From: a virus
Lineage: Duplodnaviria; Caudoviricetes
Virus record (IMG/VR): IMGVR_UViG_3300005937_000016
Location: 2,425 to 66,424 of that record
Direction: 5' to 3' (one strand)
Length of the DNA stretch: 64,000 nucleotides
Shown here piece by piece: positions 11,560-48,321 of this stretch. Positions within the stretch are counted from its first letter, which is position 1. Every line of letters begins with the position of its first letter. The position numbers and the translations under genes are program-made. The notes beneath the pieces were generated by a model, which ran no database searches, had not been told where the DNA came from, and saw only the letters and a program-made list of their open reading frames with translations.

Positions 11560-12234
11560 TCACCGTGCAGGCGCAATGGTTGCTCCAGATATCTCGGCAT
11601 GGCTGGCATCCTGAATCACAAACCGACCATAGCCCATTTTGCGCGAGGTCCCCACGCCTACCCGTTGCCCACAGTAGCCCACAAAATCAATAATATGCTG
11701 CGCCTCCGGAATATCGTTCACGAAAAAACCGATCGTGCCGTGCGCCGTGAACTTGGCAATAAACGGGTTTTTCCGTAAGGCCCGCTGATTACTTAAGGGC
11801 TGTCCGGTGCCTGATTTGGGCATCACCAGGCGCTCATACACGCCGTCTTCTTTCTCTTTGCCCGTGTCCCAGTCCGACACATGCAGGATATGGCGGAGGT
11901 TGGCGGGATCACAGGGACGCTGCGAGGCAGACAGGGTTTTCGCACTTTCAATCAAACAGCCGTACATTTGATGGGATGGAATGATGATGGCCCCCTCCTG
12001 GTCCCGGTACCACGGGCGCGACGCCCGTTCTTCCAGGGCCTCGTACGCCTCCTGACTTATGCCCTGGCGCCGGAGATATTCCTTGAGGGCCTGCTCCCGC
12101 TTTGCCTCGGTGCGGGTGCGGTTCATCCCGCTGAGTTTCTGAATATTGATCAGCTCCTCCTTCGCGGGAAAATAGGGATCGGCAATATACCCTTTGTCAA
12201 AAAACAGGGTGAACTGTATGGTCTGGGACTCCAT
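11560..12234 (-). CDS. Stand-alone RAMP superfamily (Cas7/Csm3-like) protein
   Basis: WYRDQEGAIIIPSHQMYGCLIESA resembles the RAMP YIPxSxxKG.L motif; C-terminal G-rich loop GVGTSRKMGYGRF; strong RBS AAGGAG. Confidence 0.7.
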   Translation of the reverse strand: MESQTIQFTLFFDKGYIADPYFPAKEELINIQKLSGMNRTRTEAKREQALKEYLRRQGISQEAYEALEERASRPWYRDQEGAIIIPSHQMYGCLIESAKTLSASQRPCDPANLRHILHVSDWDTGKEKEDGVYERLVMPKSGTGQPLSNQRALRKNPFIAKFTAHGTIGFFVNDIPEAQHIIDFVGYCGQRVGVGTSRKMGYGRFVIQDASHAEISGATIAPAR

Positions 12235-12255
12235 GATGTCTCCTTGCGTTGTCGT

Positions 12256-12705
12256 GTTGCCGTCGCCGTTGCCGACGCCGCTGCCGTTGCCGTAGCCGGA
12301 GCCGTTGTCGTGGCCGTTGCCGTAGCCGTTGCCGAGGCCGTCGCCGTGGTCGTCATCGTCGTCGTTGCCGCCGTCGTTGCCGATGCCGCTGTCGATGCCG
12401 GAGCCGGGGCCGTCGCCGTTGCCGTCGCCGGAGCCGTTGCCGAGGCCGTCGTCGTTGCCGCAGCCGTTGCCGCAGCCGTCGTCGTTGCCGCTGCCGGTGC
12501 CGTAGCCGTCGCCGGAGCCGATGCCGACGCCGCTGCCGTTGCCGCTGCCGTTGCCGTCGCCGTCGCCGTCGCCGGAGCCGATGCCGGTGCCGTCGTCGTT
12601 GCCGCTGCCGTTGCCGTCGCCGTCGCCGGAGCCGATGCCGACGCCGTCGTCGTTGCCGCAGCCGTTGCCGTCGCCGTCGCCGTCGCCGGAGCCGGTGCCG
12701 TCGCC
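12256..12705 (-). repeat. Array of 75 hexamer units GGC-NN-C (candidate non-coding guide array)
   Basis: Manual parse: 450 nt in unbroken 6-nt register; constant slot is GGC x65, GAC x9, GAT x1; the last base of every unit is C; in-frame TAA directly 5' and no start codon in the Gly-X frame. Confidence 0.9.
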
Positions 12706-12795
12706 GCGTTATTGCCAGAACTCTCGCGCCAATGCACCCCCCCGGCGTCTCGAGACGGCGACGCGCCCTCCGCTACGCGGCTTTCGGCCAGCGCT

Positions 12796-13413
12796 CTAGG
12801 ATACATGTGCCCAGGCACGTCCTTTGACAATATTACTAATGAGCTTGTCGCTTACTCCGTGTTGCTTTGCTAAACGATACATACTTATGCCAGCAGCATG
12901 CTGTGTGCGGATTGTGCGTATATGCCCCTCCGTCAATTTGGCGTTCGGCACCTGTTCGCCATGTGGTGTATGCAGTCGTTTCTTCATCGCGCAATCCTGC
13001 ATATTCTCCAGATGCGTTCCTAAAAAGAAGTGTCTCGGGTTACAACAAGGCGGGTTGTCGCATTGATGACACACCTCCTTTGCATCAGGTATTGGGCCAT
13101 AGGTATAGATGTAAGCTAGCCGATGGCTCAGATACATTTTTCCTTTGATACCTAAGCGACCATAACCCTGTCTATGCAAGCTCCCTTGCCAAAGCCAGCA
13201 GGCATCATCTCCACCATTCTTGTCTACTCGCTTCCAGAAGCACGCAATTAAATCGCGCGGTTTGTGCTTTGGAAAGCCATGTATTTTACGATGAAGCCGA
13301 TAGCACGTTATTGAACAAAAGCGGCTGTTGCCTTCCTTAAGCTTGCTAGGCTTCGCGGGAAATCGTGCTTTACATTGTTCACATACCGTTATCACCATTG
13401 ATTTTTTAGGCAT
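12796..13413 (-). CDS. HNH endonuclease with N-terminal Zn finger and C-terminal HTH
   Basis: CEQC...FCSITC; FWKRVDK...CWLWQG...GYG...HRLAY...VCHQCDNPPCCNPRHFFLGTHLENMQD; TAATG coupling to the upstream gene. Confidence 0.9.
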   Translation of the reverse strand: MPKKSMVITVCEQCKARFPAKPSKLKEGNSRFCSITCYRLHRKIHGFPKHKPRDLIACFWKRVDKNGGDDACWLWQGSLHRQGYGRLGIKGKMYLSHRLAYIYTYGPIPDAKEVCHQCDNPPCCNPRHFFLGTHLENMQDCAMKKRLHTPHGEQVPNAKLTEGHIRTIRTQHAAGISMYRLAKQHGVSDKLISNIVKGRAWAHVS

Positions 13414-14702
13414 TATGATGCCTTTGTAGCTTTCGGGAATCTTTCCCGACAGAAAGACCCATCGGCCATTCTCCTCGAGCAATAGAAGGTGCCCGGCGCT
13501 TTCGCGCTCGGCTTCAGCGGCCCGTGATAGGGACAGACGGGCGTCTCGGGTGCTGGTGCTGGGGGCGTGGCCGGTGCCGGCATCGGGCTCGGACTGGGCG
13601 GGACCGCCGCGGGGGCCCGCCGCGCCTGCGGCTTCAGGCCCTGCTGCTTACACCACGCTACAAGGTTGCTCACGGCCTCACGAAACTCTTTGCCCGTGGT
13701 CTTGCGCACGGTCAGAAGGAATTGATACCCGGCGGCGTCCTCCACACTTACCGTGGCGCTATACGGTGCCTCGTACATCACCACGCCGGCATGGGTCAGG
13801 GTGAGATGCGCCGGGACCGGCGGCGGCACGTCCCGCGCGGGCGGTGCCGCCTCGGGCTCCGGGCTATACTCGGGCTCCGGGATATACTCGTCATCGCGGG
13901 GTGTCGTCATAGCTACCTCGTGTTTCGCGCCAGGATCGCCCAGGAGCCCGGCGGGGACCGGGGGGTCCTCTAGATCATCGGGGGGGGCCTGTGGGCCCTG
14001 TGGGGCATCCTGAGCGGTTGTCGGGGGGATCTGGGCCAAGTACTCCTCGGCCGTTGCGGGCCCCAGCGGCAAGGGCAGGGTGTCGCGCGTCCCCTGCCCC
14101 AGGCGGGCGCAGACTTCGACGTAGAGCGTTTTGGCAATCAGGTGATAACACCATTTCGATTTGCCGTGTTGACTCTGCGGGCAGGAACAGCCCCCATTGC
14201 AGGAGTAGCGGCGCCCCGCGCTGCCCTCCACCTCGAAGAAGCCATCGGGGCTCCGCGTCACTTTGCCGGCCCGCACCAGCGCGACGGCCTGGGTCAGGCG
14301 CGTATCGCTGCCACGGTCGGCATGCACATAGGGCGGCCGCTGAAACTCGGCGGCCACAATCGCCAGTTCGCGCTCAAACGCCGGTTCCATCAGGGACCCT
14401 CCTTGTTGTTGGCACGTGGGTGTGTGGGTGCTGGGGAACTTGGCAGGGTGTTCCAGCACCGTCCGTTCGTCGTCCGTCAACTCTTCGCCTACCGCCTGCC
14501 GCAGTGCCAGCGCCGTGGTGGGGCCGCAGTGCGTGGCCCAACGCCGCGCTAACGCCTGTAAGCCCCCGCGGATCTCGTCCGGCCAGTCGGCCTCGACCAG
14601 CCGCGCCTCGACCCAGGGCGTTGCTTTCCACGCGGCGGGATACGTCTCGTCCCGGAGCATGCTGCGCAAGGCGAGGCGCAGGGCGGGATCCGTGCGGGTC
14701 AT
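13413..14702 (-). CDS. SWIM zinc-finger domain protein (alternative start at 14390)
   Basis: CSCP...WCYH SWIM motif; Pro-rich linker; C-terminal CPYHG...YCS Zn ribbon; strong RBS at both candidate starts. Confidence 0.7.
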   Translation of the reverse strand: MTRTDPALRLALRSMLRDETYPAAWKATPWVEARLVEADWPDEIRGGLQALARRWATHCGPTTALALRQAVGEELTDDERTVLEHPAKFPSTHTPTCQQQGGSLMEPAFERELAIVAAEFQRPPYVHADRGSDTRLTQAVALVRAGKVTRSPDGFFEVEGSAGRRYSCNGGCSCPQSQHGKSKWCYHLIAKTLYVEVCARLGQGTRDTLPLPLGPATAEEYLAQIPPTTAQDAPQGPQAPPDDLEDPPVPAGLLGDPGAKHEVAMTTPRDDEYIPEPEYSPEPEAAPPARDVPPPVPAHLTLTHAGVVMYEAPYSATVSVEDAAGYQFLLTVRKTTGKEFREAVSNLVAWCKQQGLKPQARRAPAAVPPSPSPMPAPATPPAPAPETPVCPYHGPLKPSAKAPGTFYCSRRMADGSFCRERFPKATKAS

Positions 14703-14920
14703 CTCCTGCCTCCGAGGAGCGCCTGCCACCAGGCGCGGCACGCCTGCTGCGTGGCCCGCAGATCGCCCCGCAGGGCCGCGGCATCGATGGCGTGCGCCAG
14801 GGCGCGGCAGGTGGGATCCTGGATCCTGGCCCGGCAGTGCTCGGTGCTCCAGGTTGCCGTCTTCTGACTGACATAGGTGTACGCCGTCACAATCGCCTTC
14901 AGACAGGCCGCATCAGCCAT
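14699..14920 (-). CDS. Small hypothetical protein
   Basis: Overlaps the helicase stop and the next start (translational coupling). Confidence 0.55.
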   Translation of the reverse strand: MADAACLKAIVTAYTYVSQKTATWSTEHCRARIQDPTCRALAHAIDAAALRGDLRATQQACRAWWQALLGGRR

Positions 14921-16484
14921 AGTGGCCCTCCAGGATGAGTAGGGTCTCCCGGGCACGGGTGGCGGCCACGTAGAGCAGGCGGTAGACATCATCGGCGCCA
15001 GCGCCACCGTGATAGAGTTGCACCTGTTGCGCGCGCGACAGGTCTTTGAAGAACACGACCGTATCGGCCTCGGCGCCTTTGAGGCTATGGGCGGTGCCCA
15101 CGATCACGCGCGGCTCCTCCACTAAGGCCGTGCGCCCATAGGTGCGGTACACGCGCAAGGGATAGGCCAGGCCCTTGGCACGACTTTGCAGCACTTGGTA
15201 TTCCAGCCACTGCAGGTCCCCCGCCAGCGCCCCGGCCAGGCTCTCCGGGAGAAAGAGCTGCTCCAGGGTGGCCAGGGGGCAGGCCCCGTCCTCATCGGCG
15301 TGCAGGGCCACCTGGCTTTTGGCCCCGCGCGTCAGCACCCCGTCGGTGCGGATGAGGGGCAACCAGGTGGCGAGTTCGCGCCAGGTCCAGAGGCGGTCGG
15401 CCGGGCGGGCAAAGTCCAGGAGCCGCTGCGCGGTGCTCACGCCGCGCGGCGGCGGCGCCAGCGGATTCCACGCCCGCTGGCGCCGCCGCCACCGATTGCC
15501 AAAGGGGATGCCGGCACTGCGGAGCACCGCCACGAGCGGCTCCAGCATGTAGGCACACGGGGCGATGCAGGCATAGGTGCCCCAGGGCTCCTCTAGCCAC
15601 GCGCGCAGCGCCCCCAGGACGTAGTCAGGGGTGTCCCACGTGCCGAGCCCGTCCTGACACACGCCCGGCTCGGGCCGCGGCTCCCAGACCTTGGCCTGGC
15701 GCTCGCCAATGGCCTCGGTAAACTGACGGGCGTAGGCTTGCACGCGGGCCGGGACGCGGTACGAGCGGGGCAGCACGCGGCGATTGGGCGCGGCCAGCAG
15801 CGGGCGGAAATCGCCACCACACCAGCGGTAGAGGGCCTGGTCATCATCGCCGGCGCACAGGAAGTGGTCGGTATGCTGTGCCCAGCGCGTCACGACGTCC
15901 CATTGCAGCAGGCTGAGATCCTGGGCCTCGTCCACAATGAGGGTGGTGGGGTTGCCCGGGGCCACGGGGACGAGGGTGCGCGCCCAGTCGAGCAGGTCGG
16001 TAAAGTCGAGAAAGCCGTGCGCCTGTTTCCAGGCCGTCCAGAGGGCAAAAAACTGTTGCGCCTGCGGGGGCCACTCGGCCGTCGGGATGAGCCGGTGGCG
16101 TAAGTGATCGACCAGCTCCAGGAGTTGATCGCCGTAGAGCTTGGGGCCCCGGTGGGGCGACGGGTCGGCGGCGGGATCATCCTGATCCCGGCCCAGTTGC
16201 GCAGAGAGTTCAAACGTGGGATATTCGCTGTTCCATGTGCTATACTCGCCCTCGGCAATGGTGGGATGATCGAGCGCGTGATAGCAATGGCTATGGAGCG
16301 TGCCGATCTGGTTCTTGTCCAGGGGCAGGTGGCGTCCCGCTAATTCCCGGGCGGCCGCCCGGGTATAGGCACACAGGAGTAGACTATCACTGCCGTCTTC
16401 CTCCGCGCGCCGCGTGGCTATGCGGCTCAGTTCGGTGGTTTTTCCCGTCCCCGGTGGTCCAAAAATCACTTCCATGGTTCCCAT
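14913..16484 (-). CDS. Superfamily 1 (UvrD/Rep-like) DNA helicase
   Basis: Walker A GPPGTGKTT; IVDEAQD; GDDDQALY; SYRVP; TAHSLKGAEA; LYVAATRAR. Confidence 0.92.
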   Translation of the reverse strand: MGTMEVIFGPPGTGKTTELSRIATRRAEEDGSDSLLLCAYTRAAARELAGRHLPLDKNQIGTLHSHCYHALDHPTIAEGEYSTWNSEYPTFELSAQLGRDQDDPAADPSPHRGPKLYGDQLLELVDHLRHRLIPTAEWPPQAQQFFALWTAWKQAHGFLDFTDLLDWARTLVPVAPGNPTTLIVDEAQDLSLLQWDVVTRWAQHTDHFLCAGDDDQALYRWCGGDFRPLLAAPNRRVLPRSYRVPARVQAYARQFTEAIGERQAKVWEPRPEPGVCQDGLGTWDTPDYVLGALRAWLEEPWGTYACIAPCAYMLEPLVAVLRSAGIPFGNRWRRRQRAWNPLAPPPRGVSTAQRLLDFARPADRLWTWRELATWLPLIRTDGVLTRGAKSQVALHADEDGACPLATLEQLFLPESLAGALAGDLQWLEYQVLQSRAKGLAYPLRVYRTYGRTALVEEPRVIVGTAHSLKGAEADTVVFFKDLSRAQQVQLYHGGAGADDVYRLLYVAATRARETLLILEGHYG

Positions 16485-16494
16485 CGTCGTTTCT

Positions 16495-16698
16495 CCATAA
16501 CATCCATAAGCGCCCATAATGCATTGATGCCTGCAACCTATTGATTTAATGGGGTTCCATAACACCCATAAGACCCATAAGCGTTTTTTGCGCGTACCTT
16601 TCTTCAAAACCCTTATGGATGTTATGGGTCTTATGGAGACGTTCTATATCAAGCACTTGTGGCCTCCTGTGGATTATGGGGACTTATGGGTGTTATGC
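16495..16698. repeat. Putative replication origin: four clusters of three CCATAA/TTATGG iterons in a mirrored arrangement
   Basis: CCATAA at 16495/16504/16514 and 16557/16566/16575; TTATGG(C) at 16613/16622/16631 and 16674/16684/16693; lies between the replication gene and the helicase. Confidence 0.7.
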
Positions 16699-19425: not shown

Positions 19426-20505
19426 TTACGCAACAAAAAGAAGCATTTGGTGAGGGGCATGTCCCCCAGGATGCTGTGCATCGAGGATCGTCTGTGTGGG
19501 AATATCCATAGATCGGGGGATAGGAGCGTTCATATGGATAACCGTTGCAATGGCCCCACCCTTGACGCCATAGGCTTTGGCAAGGCTCTGCATACTTTCG
19601 CCGGTCAACCAACGCTGGACAATGGCTTGTTTTTCCTCAGCGGACAACGGTTCTCTCCCGAAGCGTTGGCGCACAAAACACGGTTGACAGCGCGTACCAG
19701 CCCGTGAACTCGGCTTGCCACAGTGCGGGCAAATACCGCGCTTTTGCGAAGGAGGACGTTTGATGTTATGCCAGGCTTCACGACAGGAGGATGAGCAAAA
19801 AGAGCGTCCCCGGAGCCGACTTGAACTATCTCGAAAGATCTGTTGACAGTATCGGCAGAGTTTCTCTTGTGTCGAGAATAAGGCCCGACAGCGCGCAGAA
19901 CAGAACTGATGCGCTTGTCTCAACTTTTCATTCTGTTTATAGATACGCGACTGACATGTGGCACAGGAGACATAGCGCCCTTGACGTTGCGCCGCGTCAT
20001 AGCACGGTTTGGAGCAAAAGTGTTCCCTCCGTGTGCGGACACTGTTCACGCCCTGTTGTGGTAAGGGGTTTTGGCATGTTTCACAGAGACCCCTATAGCC
20101 CTTGCCAATCGTATAGACCAGGAATTCCGTACGTGGAGTGATGTCTCCGCGTACAATGCTACTTGCGACTTGAATGACCTGCACATCGTCAGCCCATAGC
20201 AGGCCATTGCAAGCATCAAAGAGCAGCTTAATCAAATTATCAAGGTCTTTGCGTTGACGATTTTTCGTAAAAAATCCAACGCAGACGCCGAGATCATGCG
20301 AACGATTCATCGTCAACTGTGGATAGGCTTTTCGTATCGACCACGCAATATAGTCTTGCGCTTCTTTGGTTTGGCGTGGCGTATAGACCTGCCCATTAAA
20401 GCGTGGACGGGCTTTGGTGCCAGGCTCTCCAGGAAACGCAAGTTGGCAGAGAATACGTTGGGGTTCTGGGGGCGCAAAGAGTGGAAGACGTATCGTGAGA
20501 CGCAT
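19426..20505 (-). CDS. rusA: RusA-like Holliday junction resolvase fused to multiple Zn fingers (alternative start 20733)
   Basis: GEPGTKARPR...YTP; RKDLDNLIKLLFDACNG.LWADDVQV; repeated C..C...FCS..C fingers. Confidence 0.8.
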   Translation of the reverse strand: MRLTIRLPLFAPPEPQRILCQLAFPGEPGTKARPRFNGQVYTPRQTKEAQDYIAWSIRKAYPQLTMNRSHDLGVCVGFFTKNRQRKDLDNLIKLLFDACNGLLWADDVQVIQVASSIVRGDITPRTEFLVYTIGKGYRGLCETCQNPLPQQGVNSVRTRREHFCSKPCYDAAQRQGRYVSCATCQSRIYKQNEKLRQAHQFCSARCRALFSTQEKLCRYCQQIFRDSSSRLRGRSFCSSSCREAWHNIKRPPSQKRGICPHCGKPSSRAGTRCQPCFVRQRFGREPLSAEEKQAIVQRWLTGESMQSLAKAYGVKGGAIATVIHMNAPIPRSMDIPTQTILDAQHPGGHAPHQMLLFVA

Positions 20506-20732
20506 GGACTCATCCTCTTGGTATGATGAGACTCTTGGTTGAGACGACAAGGCAGAGGGACCAAGAGAAGACACTCGTTCCCCATGGGTAGCTAATCCAT
20601 GAGTAGCCTTGTCGTTGACAGAGACCACTGTCTGACGCTGATGGTTTTTTGGCGGCTGCGGCACAGCCCCGCCCACGACGCGATACCCCGGTTTCTGGAG
20701 TTGGGCGCGTAACCACGCCTCGTCATAGGGCA

Positions 20733-20903
20733 TTAGTCGTGCCTTTCCAGGGCGGCCCACGCCCCGACGGCGCTCCCCACAATGAGGGCGTCCAGGAGCA
20801 CCACCCCGGGATGGAGCTGCACCACGTAGATGCCCAACCAGCTGACAGCGAGGCAGCACAGCACCGTGACCAGCAGGGTCTGCGGGAGCGTCCAGCGACT
20901 CAT
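20733..20903 (-). CDS. Small two-TM membrane protein
   Basis: Manual translation MSRWTLPQTLLVTVLCCLAVSWLGIYVVQ...; TAATG coupling. Confidence 0.45.
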   Translation of the reverse strand: MSRWTLPQTLLVTVLCCLAVSWLGIYVVQLHPGVVLLDALIVGSAVGAWAALERHD

Positions 20904-42909: not shown

Positions 42910-45900
42910 ATGGCTGGTCCGCTCGGGCGCCATACCCTCCAGTATCAGCAACCGCTCTACACCCCCGCCGCGCCGCTGCATAAGGGGCTGCTCGCCTGGT
43001 GGAAGGTCCTGCCCTTGCGGGTGCGTATGTTGCGCTGGGAGGACCTGACGGGGCGGTATCCGGCCACCGTGACCATTACCAGCGATGCCAATGGCGTCCA
43101 TCCGACCACCCGGCCAGGGGGCTGGGGCGACGTGCGGGCCACCGGCAGTCTTGACATCGCGACGCCTGCCACGAGCGCCTTCAGCTTTACCCAGGGTGGC
43201 ACGGATCAGCCCGTGACGTTCATGGGGTGGTTTTATCTGTCGAGCCTCGCGGGCAACCCGAGTCTCTTCTGGCGCAATAATGAGTACCGGGTCCAACTCA
43301 CCAGCACCAACCTGAATTTTTACGTGTACAGTTCGGGGGGGACGACCATCTATCTGGGTCGGCAGGCGCCGGGCGGGACGGCACTCTATCAAGATCAATG
43401 GGTGCACCTGACGGCGACCTATGATGGCTCCCATACGGCGGCGGGGTGTGCCCTCTACCGCAATGGCGTCCAGGTGGATACCACCAATTGGGTGGCGGGC
43501 ACCTACACGGGCATGGTGGGGGCGGCGGCCAGCACCTACTTCGCCAGCGCGAGCACGGGGACCGCGCGGACGGATGATATCCGTATCTATACGCGGGTGC
43601 TCGCGCCTGACGCAATCCGCGCGGCGTATCAGGCCTCCCGCCTCGGCTGGCCCGCGGGGCTGTCCCGGACCCTGTGGCCCGGGGCCGCGCTGGTGCCGAA
43701 AGTGATCGACCCGGACGCGATTCCCTGGGATATCGTCGTGCTGTGGAGCGGCACGGCAGCGACGATTCCCGCGGGCTGGGTGCGCGAGACGGCCCTGGAT
43801 GGCCGCTACCCGCGTGGCGCTCCGGCGGCGACCGCTGGCGGCGGTACGGGGGGCAGTGCCACCCATAGCCATACGACCACGGGCCATGTGCATACCACGG
43901 CGCATGAGCACACGATCCCCAACTCGGGGGCGGCCGCCGGCGCCAGTTCGCGGGATGTCGGCTCCACGAACCCCTCGGATACCCATACGCATACGGGCAA
44001 CCCGAATACCCCGGATCCCACCACGACGCTGGCCACGGATAGTCCGAGCACGAATGCGGTCAACCATGAGCCCGCCTATGTGGAGACGCTGTTCCTGCGC
44101 TCCCTCGGTGTGACGCATGGCTTTCCCGCCAACACCATTGGCCTGTGGGCGGACAGTGCGGCGGCTCCGACCAACTGGGCGCTCTGTGATGGCACGGCGG
44201 GGCGCCCGGATTACCGCGGGGTGTTTCCCAAAGGTGCCGCCGCCGCGACGGATCCGGGTGCCACCGGGGGCGGGGCCACTACCCATACGCATAGTGTTGC
44301 CAGTCACGCGCATGGGTTTACCTATAGCCATAGCCATCCGGGCATTGCCAGTGCGATCCGGGCGCAGGCCCTGGTGGCGGGCGATCAGAGCGGGGCCACC
44401 GCGGGTGTCGCGACGGCGACCCATACGCATGCGCTGACCTTTGGGAATGCGACGCCAGGCATTACGAGCAGCAGTGATCCGACCTCCAGCGCCAGTATTC
44501 CCGAGCCGCCCTATTGGGTGCTGGCCTATGTGCAAAATATTAGCGGGGCGCTCCAACAAACCGGTGAGATCATTGCCCTCTGGCTTGGGGCCGAAGCCGA
44601 TATTCCTACGGACTGGGCGCTCTGTGATGGCACGGACGGGACGCCGGATCTGCGCAGCCTCTTTCTCAAGGGCGCCAGTACGCTTGCTGGTATTGGGGGC
44701 AGTGGCGGCAGCAGTGCGAGTCATGGCCATACGGCGACGGGCCATAGCCATCCGGTCAATACCCATAGCCATAGTGTGACGGCCGCGACGGGGGCCGGGG
44801 AAAATCGTACGGCGGGCACGATTGCGAACGCGGCGACGACCGCGCATACGCATACGTGGACGGCGGCAACCACGGCGGACTTTACCTCGGGCAGCACGAC
44901 GCCGACGCTGCAAAGTGTGGCCGACATGCTGCCGCCCTACGTCAATGTCTTGTTCGTGCAGTGGCAGAAGCCTGCGGGGGGGCTCGGGATTACGGCCGAG
45001 ACCGGCACGCTGACGCTGACGGGGACGAGTACGCCGTTGCGGACCACGGTAGGGGCCGGAAGTGCGGCGGTGGCCCTAACCGGAACGGCCGTGACGCTCG
45101 GCGTTGCGTTGCCAGCAACGGTGGGCAGTCTCACGCTGAGCGGCACGGCGACGCCCCTGCGGGCGGTGCGGCGGCTCGCGGCGGCGAGTGGGACGCTGAC
45201 GAGCACGGGCACGGCCAGTCCCCTGGTCGTCACCGTGGCGGCGAGCCCTGGCGCGCTAACCCTGACGGGCACCGCGACCGTGCTCGGCCTGACCCTGGCG
45301 GCCGGGAGTGGGGCGCTGACGAGTACGGGCACGGATGCGACGCTGGTCTATACGTCGCTCAAGACGCTTCAGGCGGATGCGGGGATGCTTACCCTGACCG
45401 GGAGCGACGTGACGCTGGTGCATGGGATCGTCCGCCGCCTGCTCGCGGATCCTGGCGCGGTGATGCTGAGTGGAACCGGGACACCGCTGTGCTGGAGACG
45501 GAAGCTGCCCGCCGCCGCGACGGCCCTGACGCTGAGCGGCACGGCGACCCCGCTGCGGGCCACGCGGCAGCTCGTGGTGTCCAGCAGTGCCGCGACGGTA
45601 GCCGGGACCGCCACGCCGTTGCGGCTGACGCTGCCAGCGGCAAGTAGTGGGGTCACGAGCACCGGCACGGCCACGCCGCTCCAGCTGACGCTTGCGGCGG
45701 CCAGTGGGAGTGCGACGCTGACCGGGACGGCCGCGACGCTGACGCATCGGACGACATTGGCCTTTAGTCAAGGCCGCGCCGTTTTTGTGAACAAACTGAC
45801 GGGGGTGGTGGAAGGCGCGACCCATGCCCTCGATACGCCCAATCTGCTCGTGCAGGTGTATGACGCCACGACGCCCTGGGCGGTGCAATTCAGTGCAGCG

Positions 45901-48321
45901 GTCGCGATTGAGCCGACCGTGTTCGATGTCACGGTGACCTTTGCCCAAGCGCAGAGTGGCTACCTGCTGCTGGCGACGGGACCGGCGCCTTCCTACGGTG
46001 CGGCCCTCAGCGGGAGCACGGTCACGACGGTGCTCGGCACGGCCCATGCCCTCAATACGCCGAATCTCTTGGTGCAGGTCTATGACGGGACTGGCCTTCA
46101 GATGCCCGCGCTGATCGAGGTCCACCAGACCACCTATGATGTGCGGGTTACCCTCGCGCAGGCCCAGAGTGGTCGGGTGGTGATCGGCTCGGCCGTGCCG
46201 CCGGGGTCCCTGGCGAACGGCGTGAAGACGCTGAGCGGGGGCACCAGTACCAGCTATCCCGCGAGTGAGCATGGGCGCAGTACGCCGAATCTGCTCGTGC
46301 AGGCCTATGATGGCGGGACGCCGATGCGCCAGGTCCAGGGGCAGGTCACGGTCGCGCCCTCAAATTATGATGTCAGCGTGGTCTTTGCCCAGAATCAGAG
46401 TGGGCGGGTGCTGGTGGGCGGGGGCGGGGCCGCCGGGCCGCGCATCATGCCTGCTGACGCCGGTGCGCTGACGAGTACAAGTACGGCCACCACGCTGCGG
46501 CTGACGCTGCCGGTCGTGGCGGGGGCAGGGGCGCTGAGTGGCACGTCGGTCATCCTGGCGGTGAGCCTCCCGGCGCTGACGAGCCCGCTGACGTGCACGA
46601 GTACGCCCGCCGTGTTGGCGGGAACGATGCTTGCCGGAAGTGGCGTGCTCACGAGTACAGGGACAGCCACGCCGCTGCGGACTGCTCGACGGCTGACCGC
46701 GGATGCCGGCACGCTGATGGGTACCGGAACGTCTGCGAGTCTCCGTGCTGCTCGGCGCGTCGTAGCGGTGAGTGGGACCCTGACGCTCACGAGTACGGCC
46801 GCTCCCTTGCAGCATCTCGTGCGTCTGCTCGCGGCGGCCGGGAGTTTGCTCAGTACGGGGCAGGATGTCGGGCTCCTCTATGGGTCACAGAAGGTGCTGA
46901 GTGCCGATGCGGCGACCCTGACGCTCACGGGGACGGCGACGCCTGTGGGGACAGCGCGACGGCTGACGGCGGCGGTGGGGAGCCTCACCAGCACCGGGCA
47001 GGCCGTGCTGCCACAGGTCACGATGGCAACAGTCTCAGGGGCGCTGATGGCCGTCGGTACGTCTGCGACGTTGCGGCGTACTCACCGCCTTGATGCCTTT
47101 AGCGGGGCGCTGACGCTCGCCGGGCAGGCCGTCACGCTGCAGAGCACGCTGGCCGCGGCATCGGCCAGTCTCAGCCTGAGCGGCACGGCCAGTATGCTCC
47201 GCGTCAGCATGCCGGCGGCAGCGAGTGCCGGGACGCTCACGGGCACGTCGGCAGCGCTCGTCTATGGTGCACGCAAGGTGTTGCTGGCAGACGTGGACAC
47301 GCTGACGCTCACGGGCACGTCCGTGATTCTCCGGCGGCCGGTGCGCATGGGTGCCGACAGTGGGAGCCTGTCGCTGACTGGCACCGCGGCGATCCTGCGG
47401 GGCAGCCGCACGATGGCCGCGTTTACGGTCGGCCTCAGTGTGACCAGCACCGCGACGTCTTTGCGGCTCCTGCTGGCGGCCACGAGTAGCCCGCTGCCGC
47501 TCACCGGGACGTCTACGCCGTTGCGGCTGGTCGTGTCTGCCGGGGCCGGCAGTGTGACCGTCACAGGCATGTCGGCGGCGTTGCTCTATGGCTCCCAACA
47601 GGTGTTGCTGGCGGAAAGTGGAAGTCTCACGCTGACGGGCACGGGGACACCGTTGCGGTCTCTCAGGCGGATGGTGGCGGCCAGTACGACGAGCAGTCTG
47701 GTCGGGACCGCGACGCCGCTGCGGGTGACGGTGCTGGTGAGCAGTGGGAGTCTCACGCTGACAGGCACGGCGACGCCCGTACGCCAGAGCCATCGACTCG
47801 TGGCGCAGGCGGGGATGCTGACGCTCACCGGCCAGGATGCCGTGTTGCGCTATGGCTCTCGGACCATCCTGCTCGCCGAGGCGGGGGCACTGACGCTCAC
47901 CGGAAGCGCTGTAGCGGTCCGCGTGACGCTGCCGGCGGCGGTGACCGGGCTGACGCTCAGTCGTCCGGACGCCTTGCTGCGCTGGACCCAGCAGGCCGTG
48001 GCGGCGAGTGGCAGTCTGGCGATCGAGGGCATCCCGGTCAGCCTGGTTCTGTCCCTGCCGGCCGAAGCCGGACAGCTGATCCTCAGTGGCGAGGCATCCT
48101 TGACGCTGGTGATGCCTGCGAGTGCCGGGGCGCTCACGTTGGCGGGGACCGAGATTCGTTTTGACTATAGTGCGATTCCGCCGATTATGCGCCCGGCGCC
48201 GATCCCAGGCGGCGGCCTCGTGAGTTCCAATGGCACCGTCGGCACTTTGCGCAGTGGCGGCGGCGTGGCCCTGGGCTTGCGCCCCCATGCGAAGCCTGAA
48301 CCCGTCGGCGTGGAGGAGTAA
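42910..48321 (+). CDS. 1803-aa mosaic fibre: LamG + tail-collar/HxH needle + long LTLTGT repeat shaft
   Basis: LamG motifs; W.LCDGT.G.PD collars; many HxH motifs; dozens of G.LTLTGTA repeats. Confidence 0.75.
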   Translation: MAGPLGRHTLQYQQPLYTPAAPLHKGLLAWWKVLPLRVRMLRWEDLTGRYPATVTITSDANGVHPTTRPGGWGDVRATGSLDIATPATSAFSFTQGGTDQPVTFMGWFYLSSLAGNPSLFWRNNEYRVQLTSTNLNFYVYSSGGTTIYLGRQAPGGTALYQDQWVHLTATYDGSHTAAGCALYRNGVQVDTTNWVAGTYTGMVGAAASTYFASASTGTARTDDIRIYTRVLAPDAIRAAYQASRLGWPAGLSRTLWPGAALVPKVIDPDAIPWDIVVLWSGTAATIPAGWVRETALDGRYPRGAPAATAGGGTGGSATHSHTTTGHVHTTAHEHTIPNSGAAAGASSRDVGSTNPSDTHTHTGNPNTPDPTTTLATDSPSTNAVNHEPAYVETLFLRSLGVTHGFPANTIGLWADSAAAPTNWALCDGTAGRPDYRGVFPKGAAAATDPGATGGGATTHTHSVASHAHGFTYSHSHPGIASAIRAQALVAGDQSGATAGVATATHTHALTFGNATPGITSSSDPTSSASIPEPPYWVLAYVQNISGALQQTGEIIALWLGAEADIPTDWALCDGTDGTPDLRSLFLKGASTLAGIGGSGGSSASHGHTATGHSHPVNTHSHSVTAATGAGENRTAGTIANAATTAHTHTWTAATTADFTSGSTTPTLQSVADMLPPYVNVLFVQWQKPAGGLGITAETGTLTLTGTSTPLRTTVGAGSAAVALTGTAVTLGVALPATVGSLTLSGTATPLRAVRRLAAASGTLTSTGTASPLVVTVAASPGALTLTGTATVLGLTLAAGSGALTSTGTDATLVYTSLKTLQADAGMLTLTGSDVTLVHGIVRRLLADPGAVMLSGTGTPLCWRRKLPAAATALTLSGTATPLRATRQLVVSSSAATVAGTATPLRLTLPAASSGVTSTGTATPLQLTLAAASGSATLTGTAATLTHRTTLAFSQGRAVFVNKLTGVVEGATHALDTPNLLVQVYDATTPWAVQFSAAVAIEPTVFDVTVTFAQAQSGYLLLATGPAPSYGAALSGSTVTTVLGTAHALNTPNLLVQVYDGTGLQMPALIEVHQTTYDVRVTLAQAQSGRVVIGSAVPPGSLANGVKTLSGGTSTSYPASEHGRSTPNLLVQAYDGGTPMRQVQGQVTVAPSNYDVSVVFAQNQSGRVLVGGGGAAGPRIMPADAGALTSTSTATTLRLTLPVVAGAGALSGTSVILAVSLPALTSPLTCTSTPAVLAGTMLAGSGVLTSTGTATPLRTARRLTADAGTLMGTGTSASLRAARRVVAVSGTLTLTSTAAPLQHLVRLLAAAGSLLSTGQDVGLLYGSQKVLSADAATLTLTGTATPVGTARRLTAAVGSLTSTGQAVLPQVTMATVSGALMAVGTSATLRRTHRLDAFSGALTLAGQAVTLQSTLAAASASLSLSGTASMLRVSMPAAASAGTLTGTSAALVYGARKVLLADVDTLTLTGTSVILRRPVRMGADSGSLSLTGTAAILRGSRTMAAFTVGLSVTSTATSLRLLLAATSSPLPLTGTSTPLRLVVSAGAGSVTVTGMSAALLYGSQQVLLAESGSLTLTGTGTPLRSLRRMVAASTTSSLVGTATPLRVTVLVSSGSLTLTGTATPVRQSHRLVAQAGMLTLTGQDAVLRYGSRTILLAEAGALTLTGSAVAVRVTLPAAVTGLTLSRPDALLRWTQQAVAASGSLAIEGIPVSLVLSLPAEAGQLILSGEASLTLVMPASAGALTLAGTEIRFDYSAIPPIMRPAPIPGGGLVSSNGTVGTLRSGGGVALGLRPHAKPEPVGVEE

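What the first reader, a model, noticed from the sequence alone, without database searches (positions are those of the whole stretch)
11560..12234. Phage-encoded stand-alone Cas7/Csm3-like RAMP with no CRISPR array or other cas genes
Seen: a 224-aa protein with WYRDQEGAIIIPSHQMYGCLIESA and a terminal glycine-rich loop GVGTSRKMGYGRF. It is the last gene of the leftward early operon, with no cas1/cas3/cas5/cas6/cas10 or direct-repeat-spacer array anywhere in the window. Known: these two motifs bracket the RRM fold of RAMP proteins. Inference: it is either the effector of the adjacent array (inter-phage competition or transcriptional silencing) or a Cas7-mimic anti-CRISPR.
Basis: partly seen in the sequence, partly recalled or inferred. 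Interest (0 to 1): 0.88.

Follow-up and report, generated by a model that had tools for sequence, protein, structure and literature searches.

The report
Phage VIPR system with six-base guide repeats
The lone Cas7-like gene is real and is most likely the protein half of a VIPR system (a phage RNA-guided DNA silencer first described in 2026); the 75-unit repeat array next to it would be its guide RNA, but it and its relatives use six-base repeat units, whereas every published VIPR uses five.

Summary
The 224-aa ORF (11560-12234, minus strand) is real. Its model is confident (pLDDT 94.6) and its best structural matches are all Cas7 proteins (Csm3, Cmr4, type VII Cas7, Cas7-11). The complete 66.4-kb phage has no Cas1, Cas6, other Pfam RAMP or CRISPR array.

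It is a distant member of the Vipr family, the protein of VIPR systems described in 2026 preprints. Its only PHROG hit is the family that holds SUSP1 Vipr. A profile-profile comparison gives E 1.9e-5. A direct HMMER hit links it to a relative with canonical five-base arrays.

The 75-unit CG[G/A]C-NN array directly upstream on the same strand (12257-12706) is its presumed guide-RNA array. In 27 of 29 related loci with readable flanks, same-strand arrays of x-G-x-C-N-N hexamers lie upstream, downstream or both.

The four VIPR papers held here describe only five-base units, so this is a new variant of a known kind.

Not shown: expression, filament formation, targets and the DNA skip rule. Seven exact-match scans found no target.

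The scan has noted VIPR arrays before in at least 37 other genomes; the notes shown describe a five-base rhythm.

The parts
11560..12234 (-). vipr-like gene: a 224-aa single-RRM RAMP. Predicted layout: beta1 (residues 3-12), three-helix bundle (23-71), RRM helix-1 (87-100), thumb loop (about 138-151, SGTGQPLSNQR), G-loop (193-205, GVGTSRKMGYGRF).
   Evidence: ORF and translation. Structure model pLDDT 94.6. Cas7-family fold matches. PHROG 4652, the canonical Vipr family. hhalign to a canonical Vipr profile, E 1.9e-5.
12239..12245 (-). Ribosome-binding site AAGGAGA, 5 nt before the ATG and 11 nt after the last hexamer. There is no room for a structured 3' tail between the array and the gene.
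   Evidence: Sequence read directly. The same array-then-GGAGA-then-ATG layout is seen in L004, L006, L009, L011 and L014.
12257..12706 (-). Presumed vrRNA (guide) array: 75 hexamers with constant part C-G-G-C (65 units), C-G-A-C (9) or C-G-A-T (1), each followed by a variable NN. It is on the gene's strand and is the only such array in the genome.
   Evidence: Unit-by-unit parse, entropies and a whole-window period-6 scan. TRF. Homologous arrays next to homologous genes in relatives.
12449..12706 (-). Guide-sized modules inside the array: 12647-12706, 12593-12646, 12533-12592, 12479-12532 and 12449-12478. The first four are paralogous (NN strings like ..AT TC GA GA (GA) AA AG AA GA). Four of the five end in a CGAC-GA variant unit, a possible boundary or processing mark.
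   Evidence: In-register variant units as punctuation also occur in L035 (TGCT) and L018 (ACTTAG). Their role as boundaries is inferred.
12707..12795 (-). 89-nt leader between the HNH gene stop and the first hexamer. No sigma-70-like promoter was found and it folds no better than shuffled sequence, so the array may be co-transcribed with the upstream genes.
   Evidence: Promoter and terminator scan. RNA fold z = +0.92.
12796..13482 (-). Context only: an HNH_3 endonuclease gene directly upstream. It is not conserved next to vipr in relatives, so it is probably a homing endonuclease rather than a VIPR accessory (vap) gene.
   Evidence: Pfam HNH_3 E 1.7e-11. No conserved neighbour gene among 21 loci.

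Best explanation
This is a VIPR-type RNA-guided system with a six-base repeat register. The 224-aa protein is a distant member of the Vipr family, which are single-RRM, Cas7-like RAMPs with a helical bundle, thumb and G-loop. The 450-nt array upstream would be transcribed with the gene and cut or bounded into guide RNAs of about 5-10 units. By analogy with the SUSP1 VIPR structures, one protomer would bind each repeat, bury the four constant bases (C-G-G/A-C) and present the two variable bases. The NN string as a whole would then recognise a gapped sequence in double-stranded DNA of a competing phage, satellite or prophage and block its transcription. Shown here: the fold, the homology to Vipr, the absence of CRISPR-Cas parts, the array's exact six-base register, and the clade-wide, co-oriented pairing of gene and hexamer arrays. 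Inferred by analogy: expression of the array as RNA, filament assembly at one protomer per six bases, DNA (rather than RNA) targeting, silencing as the outcome, and the target register, for which a one-base skip at codon wobble positions is favoured only by indirect statistics.
For: (1) Fold. The model has pLDDT 94.6 and pTM 0.86. Foldseek top hits are all Cas7-family at E 4.5e-8 to 5e-6. VIA-align gives Z 13.2-11.1 for Cmr4, Csm3, type VII Cas7 and gRAMP.

(2) Vipr homology. The family profile hits PDB chain 36pp_D, 'SUSP1 Vipr protein', through the G-loop. PHROG 4652 holds SUSP1 Vipr (6.5e-97) and four other canonical Viprs. It is the only PHROG hit of this protein (E 0.0098) and of 18 of 40 family members (best 2.2e-7). 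hhalign against a five-member canonical profile gives E 1.9e-5, probability 78%, over 139 columns. phmmer from this protein finds P0182 at E 4.8e-8, whose locus L029 carries pentamer AGY-NN arrays with a hairpin tail.

(3) Architecture. The secondary-structure order matches the bundle, helix-1, thumb and G-loop order described for Vipr.

(4) Array. It has 75 hexamers with four fixed and two free positions. In 18 of 20 IMG/VR relatives and 7 of 8 divergent members with readable flanks, x-G-x-C-N-N arrays lie next to the gene on its strand. Period-6 scores are 0.6-0.8 with period 5 at background; the reverse holds in canonical loci.

(5) Guide layout. Relatives show the leader, array and conserved 3' tail layout of vrRNAs.

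(6) Context. The host record is a complete phage with terminal repeats and no Cas1, Cas6, Pfam RAMP or CRISPR array.

(7) Published biology. The published VIPR mechanism matches this design.
Against: No RNA data exist for this locus; only two rhizosphere DNA runs hold it. No natural target was found under skip rules 0-3 in the DNA held here. None was found for four different 10-unit guides under the 1-nt skip rule by exact match: four scans of the viral collection plus one each of the genome and metagenome collections. The SUSP1 residues that read the two guanines (D177, W178) are not conserved. The repeat unit is six bases, so the published structural model cannot be transferred unchanged. 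The window's array has no structured 3' tail and no conserved accessory gene. Sequence similarity to canonical Vipr is weak (14-16% identity).
Confidence: 0.8

Rival explanations
1. The system is RNA-guided as above, but it acts on RNA transcripts, as type III Csm3/Cmr4 complexes do, rather than on double-stranded DNA.
For: The closest solved folds are RNA-targeting Csm3, Cmr4 and Cas7-11. The VIPR structural paper reports that the vrRNA filament can also pair with an RNA target strand.
Against: The same paper shows that RNA targets give mostly incomplete filaments, and that silencing works on either DNA strand. In this clade the best-fitting codon phase is found on both strands in similar numbers (31 sense, 27 antisense), which fits DNA rather than mRNA targeting. 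No nuclease partner is conserved.
Confidence: 0.07
2. The array is a DNA-level element, such as iterons, a centromere-like site or an origin, that the protein binds directly, with no guide RNA involved.
For: Tandem short repeats beside the gene of their binding protein are typical of plasmid and phage iterons. The gene sits among replication and recombination genes. No RNA evidence is available.
Against: The fold is an RNA-binding RAMP homologous to Vipr. The arrays are always co-oriented with the gene and have transcript-like leaders and tails. Two hypervariable positions per unit that differ between near-identical phages (L009, L011, L014) suit a programmable guide, not a fixed binding site. 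A 6-bp spacing does not place sites on one face of B-DNA.
Confidence: 0.05
3. The array is coding. It would be translated as a Gly-X (or Ala/Thr-rich) low-complexity extension of the RAMP, or as a separate repeat protein.
For: The G-X frame is open and in frame with the ATG. Gene callers fused such arrays to the protein in P0002, P0031 and P0063 and called ORFs across arrays in other loci.
Against: There is no ATG, GTG or TTG in that frame between the upstream stop and the gene's own ATG, which has a good RBS. With C at every third base no sense frame can contain a stop, so an open frame is automatic and not evidence of coding. The variation sits at 'codon' positions 1-2 with position 3 fixed, the reverse of coding constraint. 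In relatives the arrays also lie downstream of the stop codon, shift register at punctuation marks and contain stops (L018 ACTTAG). Relatives with AGYC or TGYC units would encode quite different peptides.
Confidence: 0.04
4. The protein is a Cas7-mimic anti-CRISPR that poisons host type I or III complexes, and the array is unrelated.
For: Phage-encoded and Cas7-fold. Phages are known to encode Acr proteins and RNA anti-CRISPRs.
Against: It does not explain the conserved NN array next to the gene in about 27 loci. The homology is to Vipr, not to any host Cas7 subtype; there is no Pfam RAMP hit. The family is spread across very different GC contents and repeat letters, which is not expected of a mimic of one host system.
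Confidence: 0.03

Closest known systems
VIPR systems (Vipr protein plus vrRNA); type II exemplar Escherichia phage SUSP1 (bioRxiv 10.64898/2026.04.26.720920, 10.64898/2026.04.26.720927, 10.64898/2026.10.15.759431)
   Same: Both are phage-encoded, stand-alone, single-RRM RAMPs with a helical bundle, thumb and G-loop. In both, same-strand tandem arrays beside the gene alternate a short constant motif with hypervariable NN. Arrays lie upstream and/or downstream, and guide-sized blocks of about 8-16 units carry leaders and tails in relatives. There are no cas genes and no CRISPR array. The proteins are homologous (PHROG 4652; hhalign E 1.9e-5).
   Different: The repeat unit is six bases (x-G-x-C-N-N; here CGGC-NN), not five (YNNGG, NNNGG, YNNNG, NNNNG). 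The constant part has four bases and in most relatives lacks GG (it is CGCC). The G-reading residues D177 and W178 are replaced (GVG-A/T-S-R-K-M). No accessory vap gene is conserved. The window's array is one uninterrupted 75-unit tract that abuts the RBS without a structured tail. The proteins form a separate clade (split 100/100).
Non-canonical VIPR arrays from the Evo-PIN intergenic survey (bioRxiv 10.64898/2026.10.21.760802)
   Same: Both are Vipr-like folds next to arrays whose constant letters depart from GGY (GAC/NN, CAC/NN, WGT/NN, TGH/NN).
   Different: All of those have period 5. The survey's remaining periodic clusters had periods 10, 8 and 7, and none at 6 is mentioned. Hexamer arrays of the CGSC type have no stop codons in the sense frames and are often called as ORFs, so they may have been missed by a survey restricted to intergenic sequence. 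That explanation is my inference.
Type III CRISPR-Cas backbone subunits Csm3 / Cmr4 (Cas7 family), and Cas7-11 and type VII Cas7
   Same: These are the best structural matches (Foldseek E about 1e-7; Z 11-13). They have an RRM core, thumb and C-terminal G-loop. One subunit covers six nucleotides of guide RNA (established knowledge, also stated), the same per-unit length as this array.
   Different: There is no CRISPR array and no Cas10, Cas5, Cas6 or Cas11. The Pfam RAMP profile is not matched. The guide would present 2 of 6 bases rather than 5 of 6. An N-terminal helical bundle is fused to the RAMP.

Membership tests
Vipr protein family / VIPR system | Single-RRM RAMP fold with a glycine-rich loop and a thumb | tested here: met
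   The model has pLDDT 94.6. Cas7-family matches: Foldseek E 4.5e-8, Z up to 13.2. The G-loop GVGTSRKMGYGRF aligns to SUSP1 GVGDWRP-RFGRF.
Vipr protein family / VIPR system | Alpha-helical bundle fused to the RAMP core | tested here: met
   Three helices (residues 23-35, 43-57, 61-71) lie between beta1 and the RRM helix-1 in the model. Their position corresponds to the bundle residues K33 and R39 of SUSP1 Vipr. The equivalence rests on order and position, not on a superposition.
Vipr protein family / VIPR system | Detectable sequence homology to described Vipr proteins | tested here: met
   PHROG 4652 holds SUSP1 Vipr at 6.5e-97. This protein hits it at E 0.0098, and 18 of 40 family members hit it, best 2.2e-7. 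hhalign E 1.9e-5, probability 78%, 139 columns. phmmer E 4.8e-8 to P0182, whose locus has pentamer arrays. The relationship is distant: 14-16% identity.
Vipr protein family / VIPR system | No cas genes and no CRISPR array in the locus or genome | tested here: met
   No Cas1, Pfam RAMP or Cas6 in the whole 66.4-kb genome. No Rfam family. No spaced direct repeats. Cas3, Cas5 and Cas10 were not searched individually.
Vipr protein family / VIPR system | Gene flanked by same-strand tandem repeats in which a conserved motif alternates with hypervariable NN | tested here: met
   75 units at 12257-12706. The same is seen in 18 of 20 IMG/VR relatives and 7 of 8 divergent members with readable flanks.
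Vipr protein family / VIPR system | Pentanucleotide repeat unit (YNNGG or NNNGG, YNNNG, NNNNG) | tested here: not met
   The unit is six bases. Period-6 score is 0.81 against period-5 0.33 here, and 0.6-0.8 against about 0.35 across the clade. Canonical loci show the reverse. The papers state a pentanucleotide motif for all seven types.
Vipr protein family / VIPR system | GGY constant motif read by conserved residues (SUSP1 H17, D177, W178, R138) | tested here: not met
   The window's units do contain GGC (65 of 75), but most clade members have CGCC, AGYC or TGYC. D177 and W178 align to T/A and S.
Vipr protein family / VIPR system | Invariable structured 3' tail after each repeat tract | tested here: inconclusive
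   The window's array runs to 11 nt before the RBS with no tail. Downstream arrays in relatives do end in a conserved tail, CGTTCCCTTCCG.... L035 ends in a hairpin.
Vipr protein family / VIPR system | Accessory vap gene beside vipr (typical, but not stated for all types) | tested here: not met
   All-against-all clustering of ORFs within about 4 kb either side of the gene in 21 loci finds no conserved neighbour. The HNH gene upstream is specific to this locus.
Vipr protein family / VIPR system | Encoded by a phage or provirus | tested here: met
   G000 is a complete virus record with direct terminal repeats. It carries phage replication and tail genes. The 20 relatives come from IMG/VR.
Vipr protein family / VIPR system | Array expressed as small RNAs that co-purify with the protein | not testable with these tools
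   No RNA run holds the locus.
Vipr protein family / VIPR system | Target recognition by NN with a one-nucleotide skip | tested here: inconclusive
   No targets were found. A codon-phase likelihood test favours a constant-phase (3n) register, +25.9 against +6.4 +/- 5.3 in shuffles, with 58 of 83 guides best at codon positions 1-2. That test is confounded by paralogous guides and AT-rich NN.
CRISPR-Cas type III Cas7 (Csm3 / Cmr4) | Match to RAMP sequence profiles, and presence of Cas10, Cas5, Cas6 and a CRISPR array | tested here: not met
   No Pfam or NCBIfam RAMP hit. No Cas1, Cas6 or array. Only the fold is shared.

The most novel reading that the evidence does not exclude
This clade is a mechanistically distinct VIPR lineage in which each protomer spans six guide nucleotides, the same per-subunit register as Cas7 on crRNA. 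It would then use an RNA-to-DNA geometry different from the published 5:3 R-loop triplex (6:3, or another skip rule). That would make it either a structural intermediate between VIPR and class 1 CRISPR backbones or an independent second solution to gapped recognition. A possible side role is that the array, lying in the gene's own 5' leader, lets the protein throttle its own translation.
Probability: 0.2. Interest if true: 0.85.

Novelty: new variant of a known kind. Interest (0 to 1): 0.6.

Why it matters
VIPR was described only in 2026 and is presented as built on a five-base repeat code. The published structures explain that code by three sequestered bases and two presented bases per protomer. 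A whole clade that keeps two presented bases but sequesters four shows that the repeat length is not fixed. It poses a concrete structural question: how is the extra base held, and does the DNA side still skip one base? It also gives a second natural scaffold for programmable gapped recognition.

Six bases per subunit is also the Cas7-crRNA register, which bears on the proposed VIPR-to-CRISPR ancestry.

There is a practical point too. These arrays are easily hidden inside called ORFs, because the CGSC-type units have no stop codons in the sense frames. Surveys restricted to intergenic sequence or to period 5 may therefore undercount VIPR diversity.

Tried and rejected
(1) Pfam and NCBIfam. There was no RAMP or other family, only a sub-threshold DUF7197 hit (E 0.074) that canonical Viprs do not share.

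(2) tblastn of the protein against 50,697 deposited phage genomes found no match, so no cultured phage in that collection carries this clade.

(3) Targets. A gapped search of all arrays against all held DNA under skip 0-3 gave observed scores equal to shuffled controls, with no self-targeting. Exact 10-unit patterns under the 1-nt skip rule, from four different guides, gave 0 hits in four viral-collection scans and in one scan each of the genome and metagenome collections. Exact matching is much stricter than the 80% NN match used in the VIPR paper, so this is weak negative evidence.

(4) RNA evidence. No RNA holder is listed; only two rhizosphere DNA runs hold the locus, one of them probably the source.

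(5) Giant proteins P0112, P0132 and P0139, which matched the N-terminal part repeatedly, proved to be sums of many weak repeats (at most 12 bits each) in S/T/V-rich proteins. The family HMM does not hit them, so they were rejected.

(6) The leader does not fold better than shuffled sequence (z = +0.92), and no promoter-like site lies between the HNH gene and the array.

(7) I first thought the one-residue-longer G-loop and the six-residue thumb insertion might explain the six-base register. Rejected: the pentamer-using L029 protein has the same G-loop length, and several hexamer members lack the thumb insertion.

(8) Accessory gene: none is conserved.

(9) The discovery paper's supplementary tables are not held. 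I therefore could not check whether any of its 667 loci belongs to this clade.

(10) BFVD gave three RAMP-like viral hits but no named Vipr. The Foldseek PDB copy, whose entries end in April 2026, returned no Vipr structure among its listed matches, so no structural superposition on Vipr was possible.

Full report
**Observation.** The ORF at 11560..12234 on the minus strand (224 aa) is present with both quoted motifs. It has an ATG preceded by AAGGAGA. It closes a leftward block that also holds an HNH_3 endonuclease (12796-13482), a UvrD-like helicase (14913-16607) and a RusA domain protein (19426-20859).

The window is bases 2425-66424 of a complete 66,424-bp virus record with direct terminal repeats. 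Six-frame searches of that genome find no Cas1, no Pfam RAMP and no Cas6. Rfam finds nothing and there is no spaced direct-repeat array. Cas3, Cas5 and Cas10 were not searched one by one. With that caveat, 'stand-alone RAMP with no CRISPR array' holds.

**The protein.** Pfam and NCBIfam give nothing useful. The protein belongs to a sizeable, unnamed, mostly metagenomic family: 68 hits in the word-indexed search and 141 cluster representatives in the exhaustive HMMER search. The conserved blocks are GYIADPYWPEREELINIQK-SGMNR, IIIPSHQ-YGCLIEA, RLVMPKSGTGQPLSNQR and GQRIGVGASRKMGYGRF.

An AlphaFold model from a 40-sequence alignment is very confident (pLDDT 94.6, pTM 0.86). Foldseek against the PDB returns only Cas7-family chains at the top: Csm3, Cmr4, type VII Cas7 and Cas7-11/gRAMP, at E 4.5e-8 to 5e-6 and probability 1.00. 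The independent VIA-align scan of 48,161 chains gives the same families at Z 13.2-11.1, with Cas5, Cas6 and Cmr1/6 lower.

**What it is.** A profile search of PDB sequences gave one weak hit, chain 36pp_D, 'SUSP1 Vipr protein' (E 0.031, through the G-loop). That led to three 2026 preprints describing VIPR (Viral Interference Programmable Repeat) systems. These are phage-encoded: a lone RAMP (Vipr) polymerises on vrRNAs made of 9-16 YNNGG repeats plus a 3' tail. It buries each GGY and presents each NN, and so recognises dsDNA with a one-base skip (xNN). The result is silencing of competing phages and satellites.

I located the SUSP1 locus: vipr at L021:28474-29076, vap1, and GGTNN arrays on the same strand. 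PHROG 4652 is the canonical Vipr family. SUSP1 matches it at 6.5e-97, and Gordonia, Mycobacterium and Listonella phage homologs at 1e-62 to 1e-75. It is the only PHROG hit of the window protein (E 0.0098, covering residues 43-208) and of 18 of 40 family members (best 2.2e-7).

hhalign of the family against a five-member canonical profile gives E 1.9e-5 and probability 78% over 139 columns, from the last bundle helix through helix-1, the thumb and the G-loop. In addition, phmmer from the window protein reaches P0182 at E 4.8e-8 in a library of 1.8 billion proteins. The P0182 locus (L029) has pentamer AGY-NN arrays ending in a hairpin tail, which is a canonical-style VIPR. The predicted order of elements (beta1, three-helix bundle, helix-1, thumb, G-loop) matches the published Vipr description. 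I therefore place the protein in the Vipr superfamily as a distant clade.

**The array.** Directly upstream on the same strand lie 75 uninterrupted hexamers (12257-12706). The constant part is CGGC in 65 units, CGAC in 9 and CGAT in 1, followed by NN. Entropy is 0.1-0.6 bits at the constant positions and 1.66-1.78 bits at NN. It is the only such array in the genome.

The NN strings fall into modules of about 5-10 units. The first four are paralogous, and four of the first five end in a CGAC-GA unit. The G-X reading frame is open and in frame with the gene but has no start codon. With C at every third base, no sense frame can contain a stop, so openness says nothing about coding. The variation at 'codon' positions 1-2 with a fixed position 3 is the opposite of coding constraint. 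The 89-nt leader has no promoter-like site and no notable fold. The array ends 11 nt before the RBS, so there is no separate 3' tail here.

**Conservation of the pairing.** In 20 IMG/VR loci encoding relatives, 18 have period-6 arrays next to the gene, upstream, downstream or both. Their period-6 scores are 0.6-0.8 while period 5 stays at background (about 0.35). The five canonical loci show the reverse, with period 5 at 0.53-0.64.

Nine more divergent members were fetched. Seven show hexamers: AGYC-NN (L027, L030), TGYC-NN (L031, L033), CGCC-NN (L032, L034) and CGGC-NN (L035). One contig is too short to tell, and one (L029) has pentamers. On the gene's strand the unit is always x-G-x-C-N-N.

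Relatives show a conserved leader right after the stop codon (..CGCAGARTAGGTTTCC), then 8-21 units, then a conserved tail (CGTTCCCTTCCG..). L009 has two such units in tandem. L018, L033, L034 and L035 have short punctuation between guide-sized blocks. No neighbouring gene is conserved, so the mobile module is array, vipr, array.

In a maximum-likelihood tree the canonical pentamer group and this 30-member clade are split at 100/100. L029 and its partner sit on a long branch beside the AGYC members at 89/92 support, with a long-branch caveat. That placement suggests a one-base change in the constant part between AGYC-NN and AGY-NN.

**Novelty.** The discovery paper states a pentanucleotide motif for all seven types and lists only five-base alternatives. 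Neither the structure paper nor the competition paper mentions a six-base unit. The October 2026 Evo-PIN survey recovered VIPR only at period 5, including its 21 non-canonical clusters. It reports other periods of 10, 8 and 7, not 6. A full-text search finds no VIPR paper with 'hexanucleotide' or 'six-nucleotide'.

Gene callers routinely run ORFs through these arrays. That may explain why surveys restricted to intergenic sequence missed them; this is my inference. I could not see the supplementary figures or tables, so an undescribed overlap with one of the seven types cannot be excluded.

Earlier notes of this scan record VIPR arrays in at least 37 other genomes; the eight notes shown describe a five-base rhythm, sometimes punctuated by single hexamers. 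None mentions a pure six-base register.

**Mechanism.** The most likely mechanism is one protomer per hexamer, four bases buried and two presented. How the sixth base is accommodated is unknown. The SUSP1 guanine-reading residues D177 and W178 are replaced. The clade's G-loop is one residue longer and some members have a six-residue thumb insertion. Neither feature tracks the register, because the pentamer-using L029 protein shares the loop length and several hexamer members lack the insertion.

**Targets.** No self-target or cross-target appears in the DNA held here under skips 0-3. Seven exact-match scans with four 10-unit guides under the 1-nt skip rule found nothing.

An indirect test used codon-phase dinucleotide models trained on this phage's genes and scored 83 guides. 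It favours a constant-phase (3n) target register: +25.9 log-likelihood units against the null, compared with +6.4 +/- 5.3 for units shuffled between guides. Both cycling-phase models score below the null. Fifty-eight of 83 guides fit best with NN on codon positions 1-2, split 31 sense and 27 antisense. That is what the published one-base wobble skip on dsDNA predicts. However, paralogous guides and AT-rich NN inflate the signal, so I treat it as suggestive only.

**Verdict.** The system class is already known (VIPR, 2026). This locus and its clade are a new variant of it, with a six-base repeat register and no conserved accessory gene.

Noticed in passing
L029:2090-2260 (contig of P0182): A member of the same protein clade carries pentamer AGY-NN arrays ending in a hairpin tail (GGTGGGAATTTC...GATTCCCACC), while its nearest relatives L027 and L030 use AGYC-NN hexamers. 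This looks like a natural 5-to-6 register switch by one constant base.
   Followed up: partly
L009:4630-4930; L011:4480-4680; L014:4600-4800; L020:4590-4700: Closely related phages share the leader CGCAGARTAGGTTTCC immediately after the vipr stop codon. L009 and L011 also share the tail CGTTCCCTTCCG... The NN strings are completely different in each phage, which is the picture expected of fast-evolving guides on a fixed scaffold. L009 has two leader-array-tail units in tandem.
   Followed up: partly
P0002, P0031, P0063; L031:2342-2788, L034:2252-2812, L035:866-1051; window 12150-12830 (-), 11881-12873 (+), 12249-12827 (+): Gene callers and ORF finders turn the hexamer arrays into ORFs or N-terminal 'G/D/A-X' extensions of the RAMP. 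These are annotation artefacts that hide the arrays from surveys restricted to intergenic sequence.
   Followed up: partly
L007:1669-3174: The window protein's closest relative (63% identity) has about 140 CGGC-NN units in four tracts lying 0.9-2.3 kb upstream of the gene rather than next to it. Internal duplicated NN modules are visible.
   Followed up: no
window 12796-14741 (-): An HNH_3 endonuclease (228 aa) and a 442-aa protein with no Pfam match sit directly upstream of the array on the same strand. Neither is conserved beside vipr in relatives, so they are probably not accessory genes.
   Followed up: partly
window 44990-47777 (+), inside the 1803-aa ORF 42910-48321: Ten copies of a roughly 46-nt unit at multiples of about 60-138 nt (..CTGACGCTGACGGGCACGGC..). 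This is a repeated protein module in a giant, probably tail-associated protein.
   Followed up: no
P0112 (4455 aa), P0132 (1403 aa), P0139 (2305 aa): Giant S/T/V-rich repeat proteins scored E 1e-14 to 1e-24 against the query's residues 5-113 in the exhaustive search. The score is the sum of dozens of very weak repeats, and the family HMM does not match them, so the similarity is likely spurious.
   Followed up: yes
L030:2450-2560: A run of N (masked or withheld sequence) interrupts the locus downstream of the vipr homolog, so any downstream array there cannot be read.
   Followed up: no
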